Source of the DNA: a virus
Length of the DNA stretch: 64,000 nucleotides
Strand: one strand, 5' to 3'
IMG/VR virus record: IMGVR_UViG_3300037234_000438
Location: 15,212-79,211 of that record
In this document: positions 55,247 to 63,549 of the stretch, piece after piece
Numbering within the stretch: position 1 is the stretch's first letter
How the letters are laid out: every line of letters begins with the position of its first letter
Position numbers and translations under genes: made by a program
Notes under the pieces: generated by a model
Databases searched by the model: none
What the model was told of the DNA's origin: nothing
What the model saw: the letters and a program-made list of their open reading frames with translations, nothing else

Positions 55247-55462
55247 ATGAGCATAACTGAAAGGGATCTATTTTTAGCGGCAGCGCGGCTTGCGGCCGCA
55301 GTTTTGGCTAATCCTACATCGGGTTCGGTTGACGACCAATACAGCCAACAGCAAGCCATGGAAGTTGCCATTGCGTCCGTCAGGCTGGCGGCCAGCAATA
55401 AGGGGATATTTGTTCTCACGGAGCCCCTTGAGGAAGCGGTCTATAGGGCAACCAACCAATAA
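55247..55462 (+). CDS. small protein with tag B (EPLEEAVYRAT)
   Basis: ATG 55247 after previous stop. Confidence 0.65.
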   Translation: MSITERDLFLAAARLAAAVLANPTSGSVDDQYSQQQAMEVAIASVRLAASNKGIFVLTEPLEEAVYRATNQ

Positions 55463-55484
55463 ACATTTAATTAGGGAGAAGAAG

Positions 55485-55754
55485 ATGAGCGAAGAGAAGG
55501 TTGATTTTAAGTTTGGTCTCGGAGATGAAGTTAAGGATAGCATTACGGGATTCAAGGGGATTGTTACCGCCAGGACTCAGTGGCTACACGGTTGCAACGT
55601 ATACAGGGTTCAGCCGCAAGACCTGAAAGACGGCAAGAGGCTGGAGGTGGATCATTTTGACGAGCCTCAGCTTGAAGTTGTGGAAGAAGAGGTACACAAG
55701 GAGCACCGCAAGACAGGTGGCCCAGCGCATGAAGCAGTGATGACGAACAGATAA
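55485..55754 (+). CDS. SH3-like phage protein
   Basis: LGD.VKD.ITGF.G...R..WL.GC....VQP..FDE..L. Confidence 0.7.
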   Translation: MSEEKVDFKFGLGDEVKDSITGFKGIVTARTQWLHGCNVYRVQPQDLKDGKRLEVDHFDEPQLEVVEEEVHKEHRKTGGPAHEAVMTNR

Positions 55755-55775
55755 ACATTTAACCAGGAGGAAGCA

Positions 55776-56255
55776 ATGAAGAAAGACGAGAAAGCCAAAA
55801 ACGACGACGAACACGTCACGAGAGAAGAGTGTGAAAGAGAACTGTCTGTCAAGCTGAATGACAAAGAACTTATCAGCTATTCTAAAGAGCTGGCTCGCAA
55901 GCAGTGCGAGAAGGTCGAGAAGGACGAGCGAAAAAAGGAGATCATGGCAGAATACACCGCCGAACTAAAGAAATTCGACGCTGATATCGGTGTTCTGGCC
56001 AGAAAAGTCACCACAGGCCAAGAGCAGAGAACTGTCAAGTGCGTCTGGATTTTTGACTGGAAAGAGGGTGGTAAAAAACTCATCAGGACGGACACCGAAG
56101 AGGTCGTGAGGGAAGAGACTATTCAAGCCTCGGAGCGTCAGCAACACTTTGCGCTTGAGGAGCAAGCGAAGAAAGTCAAGGAGGCCTCTGACTTGAAAGA
56201 ACCCATAGGGGAATTGATAGACGAGAAGGTTGTTGACAAGCTAAGTGGCGACTGA
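55776..56255 (+). CDS. coiled-coil hypothetical protein
   Basis: AGGAGG RBS; G...R.V.C...R.DT.E.V..ERQ. Confidence 0.7.
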   Translation: MKKDEKAKNDDEHVTREECERELSVKLNDKELISYSKELARKQCEKVEKDERKKEIMAEYTAELKKFDADIGVLARKVTTGQEQRTVKCVWIFDWKEGGKKLIRTDTEEVVREETIQASERQQHFALEEQAKKVKEASDLKEPIGELIDEKVVDKLSGD

Positions 56256-56532
56256 CCTTGACAGCATAAATTCGAGCTCCTCTGAGATTTCGGAGGAGCT
56301 TACTTTCACTCTCAACATCTCGGATCTCCCGGATGTGCAGGTTGGAGATTATATCAGCGTAAGAGTGGAGGTAAACGGTGTCAATAGCAACATCATCAAG
56401 AGGTTCCTGGTGACGTCTCTGGCAGAGGATGCCGTAGCTGGGAACAAGGCGATAACTGCTAAATGTATCGAAACATATCCTGAAGAGTCTGAACTCGAAA
56501 AAGCGGTGAGGGAAGCGACGTGTCAAAGATAA
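56245..56532 (+). CDS. small protein resembling the gpJ hub barrel + tag B
   Basis: VGDYISV...RFLVTSLAE; ESELEKAVREAT. Confidence 0.65.
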   Translation: MATDLDSINSSSSEISEELTFTLNISDLPDVQVGDYISVRVEVNGVNSNIIKRFLVTSLAEDAVAGNKAITAKCIETYPEESELEKAVREATCQR

Positions 56533-56705
56533 AAACGATAATGGCCGGATGCTATAAGGTTGGTGATTGCGTCATATTTGGCGGTGAGAAGTTTGAGGTG
56601 ACGAAAATCATAAACCGCACCGCCATAGAGGTTGAACCCGCTCTGTCAGAACTAGAGAAAGCTGTAATGGAGGCGACAAATGAAGAAGAGAAGTGGCAAT
56701 CCTAG
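56520..56705 (+). CDS. small protein resembling the tail-tube insertion barrel + tag B
   Basis: VGDCV...VTKI...VEPAL; SELEKAVMEAT. Confidence 0.65.
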   Translation: MSKIKTIMAGCYKVGDCVIFGGEKFEVTKIINRTAIEVEPALSELEKAVMEATNEEEKWQS

Positions 56706-56859
56706 CTTTGTGTTCCCTAGTACACCAGCAGGAAAGTTGGCGTGGCAGATATTTAAAGGGATATACCGAAAGCCCGACGGCCTGTTTGAGCCTATGAGTA
56801 TAAAGGAGTCCATAGAGAGGCGCGTCAGAGCTCAGAAGGCAGTCAGGAGGCAACGGTAA
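56680..56859 (+). CDS. 59-aa protein carrying a portal-like peptide (not in ORF track)
   Basis: GGAGG + ATG 56680; FVFPSTPAGKLAWQIFK is 13/17 identical to the portal. Confidence 0.75.
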   Translation: MKKRSGNPSFVFPSTPAGKLAWQIFKGIYRKPDGLFEPMSIKESIERRVRAQKAVRRQR

Positions 56860-61147: not shown

Positions 61148-61177
61148 AAAAGAATCCCAATTAAGGAGTAAATAGCG

Positions 61178-62220
61178 ATGGATGGTAGCGCATTAATAAA
61201 GGACGTCAAGAAGGCATGGAAGACAGCAAAAAAGAAGGACCTGGATTGCTACGATGAGGTTGAGAGGGTAATTGAAGCTGCGGCCTTGTCTGATTACCAA
61301 AGAGGATATTTCAAGGCCAAGCTGGAAGAAATTGGCAACTCCCTCTCCAGCGAGCAGGAAGATTGGTTGTGGGAGATCGAGGCGGTATTGAAAGGATTTG
61401 ATAACGATTAAATGGAGAACGCGATGACAGTTTTAACCGAAGAACAGCAAGAAGAGATTGTAAGTATGGAACGGGAAAAACATCGGCTGTGGAAGGAAGA
61501 TATGCTGGAGGCCAAGAGATTTCGGCATGCAGATATGAGACTGCGAATAACAATGACCGCTCTTCTGGCAGTTGAATTAGTCGTTGTCATTGGATGGTTG
61601 GTGGCGTGGGTGAAGGTTAGCATTTAACGAGGAGACGTTATGGCCGAGAAAGAAATAGATAAGTTTTTAACTGAGGCAATGGGAGAATGTTGGCATGAGC
61701 GGATAGAGGCTGATATTGGGGAGTTCATGAACCCTGATATCCGGAGTTGGTCGTGTAGGTGCGACATTAAAAATACAATGGTTTGGCCTGATTATTGTCG
61801 GCATTTTAGAAACAATGACTTCTCCACATGGGAAGGTTTTGGCAAGCTTTTTTCTTGGAGTAAAAAAGAAAGATGGTGGATTGACTTTATACTGTCTCAG
61901 AGAAGGCCAGGAGTTTCTGCTTTTTGTGAGATGCTGGACCCTGAAAGATTCGCCAAGGCTGTTTATGAGTTTTTGAAGGAGAGAGGGTCATGAAAACAAA
62001 ATGGATCAAGGATGTTCTAGTGAGCACAAGTGTGTGTGGTGCGTGCTATATGATTCCTTATTTTTCAGCAATGGCCATTCGTATTTGGACCGAGGGAGAA
62101 GTGGCTCCATTGGCGCTACTTATGTTTTGGGGAGGAATGGCGTACAGCGGCTATCTCACTCGGAGAGAAAGGAAGGTGGTGGCAAATAAGATAAAAGACA
62201 TTTTTGGCAAACTGAACTGA
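61178..62220 (+). CDS. four small genes (61178-61411, 61412-61627 TM, 61640-61993, 61990-62220 TM)
   Basis: ORF track; RBSs. Confidence 0.6.
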
Positions 62221-62247
62221 ATGCTTGTTATTTAATGGGAGAAATTT

Positions 62248-62994
62248 ATGCCACACTTTAAGACAAGAACATTTTCAACTTATACGGAAATGGGCCACGT
62301 AAGCGAGAAGATCAGTATAAAGGTAAGCGCAGGTGGAGAGTTTTACTGTTACCTGCCTGAAGATTACCTGCCAGCCGTCAAGGATGTCTTTAAGCAAAAC
62401 TGGAAAAAGGACGGCAAGATAAGAGTTTATGCAGACACGCTCGCGGAGCTGGAAACTCGCATCGAAAAAACCATAAGGATAAATGCTGAACCAGAAGTCT
62501 TTGAAGAACCGGTAATTAGATACAACATAGAATCGCACGTTTCATTTGCAGAAGACAGCGATGGTAACGTTTTCCCCAATACTGGATTTCCTGATACCAA
62601 ATGGAACGCCAAGGGTGACAGGGAGTTGTATGGAAACCATGACTCTGCGAAACCTTGCCGTGGCGGATATAGTTTAAGGGTTGGCGCCCAAGCCATGATG
62701 AAGAAGACTCTTGTGTATGGCGAGACGAAGAGAGTGAAGTATAGCTTTTACTATAAAGACGGCAGCCACCACGATCACGACAATCCGGCAGAATTGTTAA
62801 ATAGCTGGAGTTCCTTCTCTCTACCCGACAATGCCAAGGAAATCCCATACACAGACGAGGCCGCTTTATTTTTCCACAATCTTCTTTTAGGCATGGCGCA
62901 ATTGTCCAAGAAAATACAGGAGCAGACGTTTGGCCAGGAAAAACTATTGGAACTGATTGCAAAAGGACATAAGTTGTTGCCGGAGAAAACTTAA
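62248..62994 (+). CDS. hypothetical protein
   Basis: 248-aa ORF with GGGAG RBS. Confidence 0.7.
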   Translation: MPHFKTRTFSTYTEMGHVSEKISIKVSAGGEFYCYLPEDYLPAVKDVFKQNWKKDGKIRVYADTLAELETRIEKTIRINAEPEVFEEPVIRYNIESHVSFAEDSDGNVFPNTGFPDTKWNAKGDRELYGNHDSAKPCRGGYSLRVGAQAMMKKTLVYGETKRVKYSFYYKDGSHHDHDNPAELLNSWSSFSLPDNAKEIPYTDEAALFFHNLLLGMAQLSKKIQEQTFGQEKLLELIAKGHKLLPEKT

Positions 62995-63012
62995 TAAGCA
63001 GGGGGGGAAGAT

Positions 63013-63222
63013 ATGGGATATAAAGGAATGTGTAGCGAATGTACGCTGGCCGTGACAAAGAAGGACGATCCCAAAAAACACAAGCTGTGCTTGAAGTATG
63101 GAAGTACGTGTATGAGCGTTGCTAGAAATTGCCATGGTCCCGCGAATGGAATATTGAAGGAAGATTGGAAAGACTACATTTCTCATGCAGCCAGAAGCAA
63201 GTACGAGCCAGTCTGTAAATAA
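63013..63222 (+). CDS. Cys-rich small protein
   Basis: ORF track; RBS. Confidence 0.6.
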   Translation: MGYKGMCSECTLAVTKKDDPKKHKLCLKYGSTCMSVARNCHGPANGILKEDWKDYISHAARSKYEPVCK

Positions 63223-63549
63223 TGCCATACTCTAAAGCACAAAAGCTAGAAGCGAGGACCGCGATATCACTCAGGGGGCTTAAGATGTACGCCATCTGAG
63301 CTATTGAGATGCGCCAGGTCCAGCAATATCTCTACCACCGAAGCGGCAGAGGCCATGGAAGTATCTGTGGCTCTGTCTGGAGACAAGAAGCCGTATAAGT
63401 GTGGAGAGGAGGACTGTGCCTGTATGTCAGCAGTGCTCGCTAGACATTGTCCTGGTTGTGACAAACTTTTCCCTATTTTGTTCGGGGAAGACCATTGCTT
63501 TAGGTGTGACTCAAACAATGGCCGCCAGCATGCCAAATCCTCAATCTGA
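63222..63549 (+). pseudogene. tag A paralogue of 58464 split by +1 frameshift at G5 (63274-63278)
   Basis: Removing one G gives AISLRGLRCTPSEL, matching AISNNGLRCTSDEL. Confidence 0.65.

What the first reader, a model, noticed from the sequence alone, without database searches (positions are those of the whole stretch)
55247..63549. Candidate new system: array of small 'virion-fragment + shared tag' proteins (possible decoys or mimics)
SEEN: far from the late operon and on the opposite strand, a run of 50-150 aa genes carries diverged copies of pieces of this phage's own structural proteins. The matches are portal (56680), tail-fibre C-terminal domain (58882), protease HIxSxGG loop (57239), tail-tube segments (56520, 56860) and gpJ hub barrel (56245). 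Each is joined to one of two recurring helical tags (only a frameshifted trace in 56680). In the clearest matches synonymous sites differ while residues are kept, so these are not fresh duplications. KNOWN: bacterial defences sense virion proteins (Avs4 senses portal, Avs1-3 terminase, DSR2 tail tube), and DSAD1 inhibits DSR2 by competing with tail tube. INFERENCE: this is a modular anti-defence decoy library, expressed before the real triggers, in which the tag docks the decoy to a common partner. Alternatives are dominant-negative poisons of competing phages' assembly, or tagged cargo for packaging.
Basis: partly seen in the sequence, partly recalled or inferred. Interest (0 to 1): 0.92.

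Follow-up and report, generated by a model that had tools for sequence, protein, structure and literature searches.

The report
Shared peptide tags on small phage proteins
An uncultured marine-sediment phage carries a dense row of small orphan genes, about thirteen of which share one of two short helical peptide modules. Only two of them really copy pieces of the phage's own particle proteins, so the "decoy library" idea is mostly unsupported.

Summary
Partly confirmed. Window 55247-63549 holds 24 tightly packed + strand ORFs (49-248 aa) opposite the late operon.

**Two recurring modules are real:**
- **AV tag.** This is a near-C-terminal helix, SELExAVRxAT. The strict motif occurs 7 times in the 79-kb genome, always 2-17 residues from a stop; shuffles give 0.02. 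Synonymous sites are saturated (pS 0.76) and residues are kept (pN 0.18). The protein bodies are not detectably related.
- **LEG module.** This is a helical unit of about 35 aa ending EVAxxLEG, found in 6 genes and usually followed by a zinc ribbon. Its helix-plus-ribbon core recurs as 7 tandem copies in a syntenic relative phage.

**Only 2 of the 6 claimed virion matches survive testing:**
- g58882 is a fast-evolving copy of the phage's own tail-fibre tip domain (E 5e-12).
- g56680 carries 13 of 17 residues of a conserved portal motif.
- The protease, tail-tube and gpJ matches are noise.

The relative phage has no such copies. The tagged genes have no other homologues among billions of proteins.

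Best reading: a fast-evolving accessory array whose tags are shared interaction modules with unknown partners. The decoy library is a roughly 7% possibility. Earlier unchecked notes of this scan describe analogous shared tags, with other motifs, in other uncultured phages.

The parts
55247..55462 (+). g55247, 71 aa, acidic and helical. AV tag variant EPLEEAVYRATNQ at the C-terminus.
56245..56532 (+). g56245, 95 aa. AV tag SELEKAVREAT, 4 aa from the stop. The tag's last codons (AGG GAA) form the ribosome-binding site of the overlapping next gene.
   Evidence: The claimed gpJ match is noise (E 0.39). Weak language-model lead to tail-hub families.
56520..56705 (+). g56520, 61 aa. AV tag SELEKAVMEAT.
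   Evidence: No significant match to any late protein.
56680..56859 (+). g56680, 59 aa, basic (pI 11.6). Residues 10-26 copy a conserved portal motif, 13 of 17 identical. The 3' end carries an AV-tag-like DNA trace with a 1-nt deletion.
56860..57255 (+). g56860, 131 aa. AV tag SELESAVRAAT followed by CPTC. The tag is predicted helical (residues 106-116).
   Evidence: Unverified ESMFold lead to the tail-tube fold.
57239..57547 (+). g57239, 102 aa. LEG module (ISPEDVMIAREVAEMLEGK) in the middle of the protein, without a zinc ribbon.
   Evidence: The HINSKGG match to the protease motif HIDSPGG is not above chance.
57573..58016 (+). g57573, 147 aa. Helical N-terminus, a DnaJ-type CxxC zinc finger, and AV tag SMIEKAVMLAEDV at the end.
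58000..58320 (+). g58000, 103-106 aa. AV tag SELEAAVRKAVD at the end. AGG AAA serves as the ribosome-binding site of g58313.
58313..58462 (+). g58313, 49 aa. The minimal LEG-family form: one amphipathic helix plus a CxxC...CxxC zinc ribbon. It is the G000 member that best matches the 7 paralogues in relative phage G001.
   Evidence: profile built only from G001 members: E 1.3e-6
58464..58880 (+). g58464, 138 aa. LEG module plus a cysteine-rich, cross-braced zinc domain.
58882..59262 (+). g58882, 126 aa. N-terminal LEG module (residues 1-36) fused to a stand-alone copy of the tail-fibre tip domain (residues 37-126).
60743..61147 (+). g60743, 126-134 aa. LEG module plus a cysteine-rich region.
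63304..63549 (+). g63304, 81 aa. LEG helix plus a zinc domain. It is the closest paralogue of g58464 (E 4e-9).
1356..1550 (+). Seventh AV-tag protein, 64 aa, ending HPLEIAVRKATEKED. It lies outside the array, and relative G001 has no counterpart between the two conserved neighbouring genes.
16106..17179 (-). Tail fibre of 357 aa. Its C-terminal tip domain (residues 253-355) is the source of the g58882 domain. The tip family has 90 relatives, on fibres with varied shafts.
35467..37086 (-). Portal protein of 539 aa (lambda-family, weak Pfam match). Residues 293-309 are the motif copied in g56680.
55485..56255 (+). Untagged array genes g55485 (phrog_16275) and g55776 (phrog_12688). g55776 has a homologue in G001. 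Both are ordinary conserved phage small genes of unknown function.
59278..63222 (+). Remaining untagged array genes: g59278, g59729, g60063, g61178, g61412, g61640, g61990, g62248 and g63013. Several are cysteine-rich and two have hydrophobic, membrane-span-like stretches (read from the sequence, not run through a predictor). g60743, listed separately, lies within this span.

Best explanation
This is a fast-evolving, lineage-specific accessory-gene array of a 79-kb tailed phage from marine sediment. Thirteen of its small proteins fall into two sets, each defined by a short conserved helical module rather than by the rest of the protein.

**Set 1, the AV tag.** Seven proteins with dissimilar bodies share the tag. 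One body is a DnaJ-type zinc finger; the rest have no recognisable family. Each ends in a Pro/Glu-rich linker followed by an 11-residue amphipathic helix, SELExAVRxAT.

**Set 2, the LEG module.** Six proteins share a helical module ending EVAxxLEG. In the ancestral form it precedes a small zinc ribbon. In this phage it has also been joined to other C-terminal parts, including a duplicated tail-fibre tip domain.

**Most likely mechanism (inferred).** Each module is a shared interaction surface. It ties several different small effector bodies to the same binding site, either on a common partner or on one another. The array would then work as a hub-and-spoke set of host-interaction or takeover proteins. 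The partner and the timing of expression are unknown.

**The two virion-derived pieces.** The fibre tip in g58882 and the 17-residue portal motif in g56680 are individual domain or motif captures that were then kept by selection. They are not evidence of a systematic library.
For: **Shown for the AV tag.**
- It occurs 7 times against 0.02 expected, always 2-17 aa from the stop.
- pS is 0.76 against pN 0.18, and DNA identity is only 60-76%.
- The bodies are not retrievable from each other by leave-one-out profiles or shuffle-tested alignment. Only g56245 against g56860 is marginal, at z 2.6.
- The tag is the only part of g56860 that AlphaFold2 predicts as a helix with moderate confidence.

**Shown for the LEG module.**
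- Pairwise E values run from 4e-9 to 1e-3.
- Its helix-plus-zinc-ribbon core recurs as 7 tandem paralogues at the syntenic place in relative phage G001. A profile built only from G001 members picks g58313, g58464 and g63304 as its three best hits among the genome's 649 ORFs (E 1.3e-6 to 3.8e-3).

**Shown for g58882.**
- BLASTP against the phage's own fibre gives E 5e-12.
- A family profile built without g58882 gives E 2.6e-11 over the whole domain.
- The family's invariant and nearly invariant residues are kept.
- In the tree it is sister to the phage's own fibre (support 0.83), with a 13-fold longer branch.
- The model has pLDDT 80 and shows a beta-sandwich. Its best structural matches include pyocin and phage fibre tips and H-type lectins, at Z 5-6.6.

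**Shown for the array as a whole.**
- Tagged genes are orphans among 5.8 billion proteins and 1.8 billion cluster representatives.
- They are absent from 34 metagenome loci fetched with the neighbouring topoisomerase-like gene, and the four such viral loci also lack the tags. This is the usual behaviour of accessory, conflict-type genes.
- Most are small and acidic.
Against: - No partner has been identified.
- With only one related genome, selection on the tags rests on within-genome paralogue comparisons.
- The AV tag could not be shown to be homologous to the similar C-terminal tail (FIxAVEEAV) shared by two proteins in G001.
- Part of the AV tag doubles as the ribosome-binding site of the next gene in 4 of 7 cases. 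Some of the conservation may therefore be translational.
- Function, timing and host are all unknown.
Confidence: 0.5

Rival explanations
1. Modular anti-defence decoy library. Each small protein would mimic a virion protein that host sensors detect (Avs-type STAND proteins, DSR2). The mimics would be made before the real triggers, and the tag would dock them to a common partner.
For: - Two real virion-derived pieces are each joined to a tag or a tag trace: g58882 and g56680.
- Both show amino-acid conservation with saturated synonymous sites.
- Weak leads point to a tail-tube-like fold for g56860 and tail-hub-like features for g56245.
- Published work shows that many STAND sensors detect portal, tail tube and other core proteins (PMC13581612), and that DSAD1 blocks the tail-tube sensor DSR2 (PMC10981675, PMC11087589).
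Against: - Four of the six claimed matches are indistinguishable from shuffles.
- Most tagged proteins (zinc ribbons, helical bodies) show no likeness to any virion protein.
- A 17-residue peptide is unlikely to imitate a fold-level pattern.
- Relative G001 has no small ORF resembling its own late proteins.
- Early expression is not shown.
- No tail-fibre tip sensor is among the families listed in PMC13581612.
Confidence: 0.07
2. There is no common partner. The tags are simply the slowest-evolving remnants of two tandemly duplicated gene families. They are kept for each protein's own folding or self-association, and partly because the 3' end of each gene carries the ribosome-binding site and start of the next (translational coupling).
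For: - Genes are tandem and often overlap.
- In 4 of 7 AV-tag genes the R/M-E/K codons form AGGGA, GGAGG or AGGAA 5-9 nt before the next start.
- g56245 and g56860 align over 77 aa (E 4e-7; bodies alone z 2.6).
- The LEG family is a tandem paralogue array in G001 as well.
Against: - The best-conserved tag residues (L, E, A, V) lie upstream of the ribosome-binding site and vary freely at synonymous sites.
- The tag sits on bodies of clearly different kinds, including a zinc finger.
- One AV-tag gene lies far from the array, as an insertion relative to G001.
- The LEG module is joined to a domain of demonstrably different origin, the fibre tip.
Confidence: 0.22
3. Address tags for the virion. 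The AV tag or the LEG module would load small proteins into the capsid, as with the T4 capsid targeting sequence or encapsulin cargo-loading peptides. Alternatively it would attach them to the tail, so that g58882 would be an accessory receptor-binding tip.
For: - The AV tag lies at the C-terminal end after a flexible Pro/Glu-rich linker, as in encapsulin cargo peptides (PMC8229669).
- g58882 carries a complete fibre-tip domain with the family's conserved residues.
- A terminase-like gene lies on the same strand upstream, so late co-expression is possible.
Against: - The tag does not resemble any segment of the late proteins.
- The proteins are mostly acidic.
- The array is 18 kb from the structural operon, on the other strand.
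- G001 shares the capsid and portal at 60-70% identity but has no strict AV tag.
Confidence: 0.1
4. For g58882 alone: a soluble fibre-tip paralogue that acts on the receptor pathway or on fibre assembly. It could mask the receptor (superinfection exclusion, or protection of progeny from debris), or interfere with a competitor's fibres.
For: - The tip fold is kept and the conserved residues are retained.
- Two surface loops of about 15 and 5 residues are deleted relative to the virion copy.
- Evolution is fast and asymmetric, which is typical of a copy with a new role.
- The fold is lectin-like.
Against: - I saw no signal peptide or membrane-anchor-like stretch in the sequence (no predictor was run), so it probably stays in the cytoplasm.
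- No ligand is known.
- No comparable stand-alone relative was found among proteins of 69-221 aa.
Confidence: 0.25

Closest known systems
Capsid targeting sequence of phage T4 internal proteins (PMC3012670)
   Same: One short peptide is shared by otherwise unrelated small phage proteins and is read by one partner.
   Different: The T4 sequence is N-terminal, is cleaved by the prohead protease and belongs to late proteins. The AV tag is near the C-terminus and helical, with no cleavage rule and no link to the capsid shown.
Encapsulin cargo-loading peptides (PMC8229669)
   Same: A C-terminal tag after a flexible linker, carried on diverse cargo proteins, which docks to an HK97-fold shell.
   Different: The consensus differs. 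Encapsulin cargo genes sit beside the shell gene, whereas this array is 18 kb from the capsid genes on the other strand. Binding was not tested.
DSAD1, the phage inhibitor of the tail-tube sensor DSR2 (PMC10981675, PMC11087589)
   Same: A phage-encoded protein that counteracts DSR2, the defence that recognises the tail tube.
   Different: No sequence comparison with DSAD1 was run here, so no relation to it is shown. Only the fibre tip and a portal motif are copied here, and no sensor for a fibre tip appears in the list of PMC13581612.
Tail-fibre tip domain family of uncultured phages (unnamed; 90 relatives, some with Mtd_N or collagen shafts)
   Same: Residues 37-126 of g58882 are a member of this family: profile E 2.6e-11, with conserved residues kept.
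   Different: All relatives found are C-terminal ends of fibres of 196-625 aa. g58882 is a 126-aa stand-alone form with a helical LEG module in place of a shaft, and it is encoded outside the tail operon.
Tandem arrays of small zinc-ribbon paralogues in phage accessory regions
   Same: The LEG family is such an array, with 6 copies here and 7 in relative G001.
   Different: Here the N-terminal helix has been extended and recombined with non-zinc C-terminal parts (g58882, g57239).

Membership tests
Tail-fibre tip domain family (type: window 16106-17179, residues 253-355) | Profile match over the whole domain | tested here: met
   A profile built from 40 relatives without g58882 hits g58882 at E 2.6e-11, covering positions 4-104 of 105. 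BLASTP against the phage's own fibre gives E 5e-12.
Tail-fibre tip domain family (type: window 16106-17179, residues 253-355) | Family-wide conserved residues (IDIG-W-M ... NRGW-TITY) | tested here: met
   The invariant columns G47, W49, N116, R117 and G118 and most nearly invariant columns are present in g58882.
Tail-fibre tip domain family (type: window 16106-17179, residues 253-355) | Located at the C-terminus of a fibre with an N-terminal shaft, in the tail operon | tested here: not met
   g58882 has only a 36-residue helical module before the domain. It lies about 42 kb from the fibre gene, on the other strand.
Virion-protein mimics (decoys) of defence triggers | Significant likeness of each array protein to a virion protein | tested here: not met
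   Two of the 6 claimed matches, and 2 of all 24 array proteins, beat shuffles. None does so in relative G001.
Virion-protein mimics (decoys) of defence triggers | Fold-level mimicry for g56860 (tail tube) and g56245 (tail hub) | tested here: inconclusive
   ESM Atlas leads only. The AlphaFold2 model of g56860 has pLDDT 40.
Virion-protein mimics (decoys) of defence triggers | Blocks a cognate sensor | not testable with these tools
   Needs co-expression assays.
T4-type capsid targeting sequence | N-terminal position with a protease cleavage site (L/I-x-E) | tested here: not met
   The AV tag lies 2-17 residues from the C-terminus.
Encapsulin-type cargo-loading peptide | C-terminal tag after a flexible linker | tested here: met
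   Pro/Glu-rich linkers precede the tag, for example EPEPEE, YPEE and EPAL.
Encapsulin-type cargo-loading peptide | Binding to the HK97-fold shell, with genes next to the shell gene | not tested
   The array is 18 kb or more from the capsid genes, and no binding test was run.
S49/ClpP-type prohead protease (for g57239) | Profile match to the protease family | tested here: not met
   Only HINSKGG against HIDSPGG is shared. There is no Pfam or PHROG protease hit, and the alignment score is within the shuffle range.
Zinc ribbon / cross-braced zinc finger (C-terminal parts of the LEG family) | Paired CxxC motifs and a profile match to solved zinc fingers | tested here: met
   CxxC...CxxC is present in g58313, g58464 and g63304. 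The family profile hits a FYVE zinc finger at E 4e-4.

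The most novel reading that the evidence does not exclude
The array is a plug-in system. 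Two docking modules (AV tag and LEG module) present interchangeable small bodies to one phage or host hub. Some of the bodies were captured from the phage's own particle proteins (fibre tip, portal motif, perhaps tube-like and hub-like folds). Together they would blunt host sensors of virion proteins or sabotage competing phages' assembly, which would make this a modular decoy or dominant-negative library.
Probability: 0.07. Interest if true: 0.9.

Novelty: new variant of a known kind. Interest (0 to 1): 0.45.

Why it matters
Short shared peptides on otherwise unrelated small phage proteins point to a common reader, meaning a hub that many accessory proteins plug into.

The clearest single object is g58882, a rapidly evolving stand-alone copy of the phage's own receptor-binding tip fused to one of the modules. 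It can be tested directly for ligand binding, trimerisation, and effects on adsorption or on defence sensors.

Earlier unchecked notes of this scan report similar tags, with different motifs, in several other uncultured phages. The phenomenon may therefore be general.

Tried and rejected
- **Complex prediction, AV tag with LEG module.** Residues 80-131 of g56860 were folded with g57239, the adjacent overlapping gene. The result was no verdict (score 0.00), which is not evidence either way.
- **AlphaFold2 of g56860** with a 3-sequence alignment gave pLDDT 40, which is unusable.
- **Homologue searches.**
  - The AV family among 5.8 billion proteins returned only self hits.
  - g58882 among proteins of 69-221 aa returned only itself.
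  - The LEG profile against 1.84 billion cluster representatives returned self hits plus two unrelated zinc-finger proteins.
- **Degenerate DNA pattern for the AV tag in viral contigs.** All listed loci had a single match, at about the number expected by chance, and none formed an array.
- **Four viral and 34 metagenome loci** fetched with the neighbouring topoisomerase-like gene contain no tags.
- **Cluster members** are identical sequences from the same sample, so no variants are available for dN/dS.
- **Sequencing runs.** One DNA run was listed, a marine sediment metagenome that is probably the source. No RNA holder was listed.
- **Promoter and terminator scan.** Promoter-like sites were no more frequent than in shuffles. 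Terminator-like sites (19 against 10.8 expected) were spread over both strands and gave no clear transcription unit.
- **Pfam and PHROGs.** No informative hits for tagged proteins.
- **Bodies of AV-tag proteins as one family.** Leave-one-out profiles fail.
- **Homology of the AV tag with the G001 tail FIxAVEEAV.** Not demonstrable in either direction.
- **Spare tip cassette for recombination into the fibre gene.** Rejected, because the DNA is saturated (pS 0.80) and the copy has its own ribosome-binding site and N-terminal module.
- **Intergenic motif CATTTAAY-N-RGGAG.** Two matches, not significant.

Full report
**Naming.** "AV tag" is the helix SELExAVRxAT; other notes of this scan call it tag B. 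"LEG module" is the unit ending EVAxxLEG; the other notes call it tag A. Genes are named g plus their window start coordinate.

**Context.**
- The window is the last 64 kb of a single 79,211-bp viral contig. CheckV estimates it as 66% complete.
- Its only listed holder is one marine-sediment metagenome run.
- The late operon runs on the - strand from about 37086 to 9065. It includes a lambda-family portal, an S49-type prohead protease, a tape measure, L-like and J-like tail proteins, and fibres.
- The rest of the contig is on the + strand. It encodes recombination and replication genes, a J-domain protein, a weak terminase-like 789-aa protein, a sigma-like protein, a topoisomerase-like protein (54346-55245) and an integrase.
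- The finding lies directly after the topoisomerase-like gene. It consists of 24 ORFs of 49-248 aa, all on the + strand. Gaps run from -26 to +81 nt, most genes have GGAG-type ribosome-binding sites, and most products are acidic.

**The claimed virion matches.**
- All array proteins were compared with all 26 late proteins by BLASTP without composition correction. Each was also compared with 200 shuffles of itself. Two matches stand out.
- First, residues 37-124 of g58882 match the last 100 residues of the 357-aa fibre at 16106-17179. The score is 45 bits, with 0 of 200 shuffles as high, and the pairwise E value is 5e-12.
- Second, residues 10-26 of g56680 match portal residues 293-309. Thirteen of 17 residues are identical, the score is 29.6 bits against a shuffle mean of 17.6 (sd 1.6), and 0 of 200 shuffles reach it.
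- The protease loop in g57239 amounts to HINSKGG against HIDSPGG. The gpJ match of g56245 falls in an FN3-like stretch (my reading of the sequence, not a tool result) and has E 0.39. The tube matches of g56520 and g56860 are weak. In all four cases 45-121 of 200 shuffles score as well.
- No other small + strand ORF in the whole genome matches a late protein at a comparable level; the other hits have E values of 0.006-0.04.

**The fibre-tip copy, g58882.**
- The tip domain is widespread. It has 90 relatives of 196-625 aa with varied N-terminal shafts, some carrying Mtd_N or collagen repeats.
- A profile built without g58882 still finds it at E 2.6e-11 across the whole domain. Only the fibre and g58882 carry the domain in this genome.
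- g58882 keeps the family's invariant residues. It lacks two loops of about 15 and 5 residues.
- In a tree it is sister to the phage's own fibre (support 0.83), with a branch of 2.58 against 0.20.
- Synonymous sites are saturated (pS 0.80, pN 0.45), and 21 of 34 identical residues use different codons.
- The model has pLDDT 80 and is a beta-sandwich. Its best structural neighbours include R-type pyocin and phage fibre tips and H-type lectins, at modest scores (Z 5-6.6).
- g58882 is therefore an old, fast-evolving, selected duplicate of the phage's own receptor-binding tip, with a 36-residue LEG module in place of a shaft.

**The portal motif in g56680.**
- The copied stretch is a moderately conserved part of this portal family (FxF-D/N-S/T-x-AGK-L/M-AW-x-I/L-FK).
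- g56680 carries the family's consensus Trp where the phage's own portal has Tyr.
- DNA identity is 31 of 51, with pS 0.92 and pN 0.25.
- The gene has a GGAGG site and an ATG start and fills the space between its neighbours exactly.
- Its 3' end resembles AV-tag DNA with one base missing.
- The match is short but unlikely to be chance.

**The AV tag.**
- The strict motif [LI]E.AV[RMY].A occurs seven times in the six-frame translation of the genome. All copies are in called + strand genes and lie 2-17 residues from the stop. A hundred codon-shuffled genomes give a mean of 0.02.
- Six copies are in the array: g55247, g56245, g56520, g56860, g57573 and g58000. The seventh is at 1356-1550.
- The four core copies are 60-76% identical in DNA, and they form the largest direct-repeat family of the region.
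- For those four copies pS is 0.76 against pN 0.18. Conservation is therefore at the peptide level.
- The tag follows Pro/Glu-rich linkers. It is the only segment of g56860 that AlphaFold2 predicts as a helix with moderate confidence.
- The bodies are not detectably related. Shuffle-tested alignment of bodies gives z below 1.4 for all pairs except g56245 against g56860 (z 2.6). Leave-one-out profiles do not retrieve the third member. One body is a DnaJ-type zinc finger.
- In four cases the R/M-E/K codons of the tag double as the ribosome-binding site of an overlapping downstream gene. This can explain conservation of those two positions but not of the L-E-x-A-V core.

**The LEG module.**
- g57239, g58313, g58464, g58882, g60743 and g63304 share a helical unit of about 20-35 aa (E from 4e-9 to 1e-3).
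- In four of them it is followed by cysteine-rich zinc motifs. The family profile hits a FYVE zinc finger at E 4e-4.

**Relatives.**
- Neither family has homologues outside this genome in the large protein collections.
- A syntenic relative was found through the portal: G001, 82 kb, with core proteins 40-70% identical.
- G001 has no homologue of any AV-tag gene, of g58882 or of g56680. None of its small ORFs resembles its own late proteins.
- After its own topoisomerase-like gene, G001 carries seven tandem small proteins with an N-terminal helix (IAxxVxxxMxG) followed by CxxC...F-P.
- A profile built only from these seven picks g58313 (E 1.3e-6), g58464 and g63304 as its three best hits among the 649 ORFs of this genome. 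The LEG helix plus zinc ribbon is therefore an older family that both phages expanded in tandem. In this phage the module was extended and joined to new C-terminal parts.
- Two nearby G001 proteins share a C-terminal tail, FIxAVEEAV. It is the top-scoring tail pair in that region, at 43 against a shuffle maximum of 38. The tail is reminiscent of the AV tag, but homology could not be shown.

**Interpretation.**
- The robust inference is that two short helical modules are the constrained elements, and that they sit on bodies that differ or drift. This implies shared interactions.
- I favour shared docking or oligomerisation modules in a fast-evolving accessory array, at a confidence of about 0.5. 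The partner is unknown.
- It stays alive only through g58882, g56680 and two unverified machine-learning leads.
- Published work does show that many sensors detect core virion proteins (PMC13581612) and that DSAD1 blocks DSR2 (PMC10981675). The concept is therefore reasonable, but it is not demonstrated here.
- Expression timing is unknown.

**Earlier notes of this scan (unchecked).** They describe analogous shared terminal tags, with other motifs, in at least three other uncultured phages. They were used only as context.

Noticed in passing
L132:19036-20000 and L133:784-1561 (G001 79036-81561): Relative phage G001 has seven tandem small zinc-ribbon paralogues that share an N-terminal helix, IAxxVxxxMxG, followed by CxxC...F-P. 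This is the ancestral-looking form of the LEG family.
   Followed up: yes
L132:12445-13338 (G001 72445-73338): Two, possibly three, consecutive small G001 proteins end in FIxAVEEAV or PFVTEVRRA. This is a C-terminal tail like the AV tag, at a similar place in the genome, but homology is not demonstrable.
   Followed up: partly
window 49249-51618 (+): The only terminase-like gene found in the window is a 789-aa protein with weak TerL ATPase hits. It lies on the + strand, 12 kb from the portal gene. It is upstream of the array on the same strand, so the array is not necessarily early.
   Followed up: partly
window 2360-3403 (+): A tyrosine-integrase-like gene (phrog_1, E 5.5e-23), which suggests a temperate lifestyle.
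   Followed up: no
window 47263-47883 (+): A phage-encoded J-domain (DnaJ) protein of 206 aa. One AV-tag protein (g57573) has a DnaJ-type CxxCxGxG zinc finger. Any link between the two is untested.
   Followed up: no
genome 13065-14051 (outside the window, upstream of it): A 328-aa ORF that earlier first-reader notes of this scan call a reverse transcriptase; I did not check that annotation. It is conserved in G001 at 59% identity. The earlier notes also propose associated RNA units. Whether it relates to the fibre tip as a diversity-generating system was not examined.
   Followed up: no
genome 7369-7755 (outside the window): A 128-aa ORF begins MHELEKAVGKG, which is an AV-tag-like string at the N-terminus. 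It may be chance.
   Followed up: no
window 61178-61411 (+): g61178 ends in EIEAVLKGFDND, which resembles the LEG helix but is not significant (E 0.95).
   Followed up: partly
window 4757-6781 (+): A 674-aa protein that matches phrog_1735 end to end (E 2.8e-269). This is a well-populated phage family of unknown function.
   Followed up: no
window 55451-55481 and 55743-55773: A repeated intergenic element, ATAAACATTTAA-N-AGGAG, lies before two array genes. A wider motif search was not significant.
   Followed up: yes
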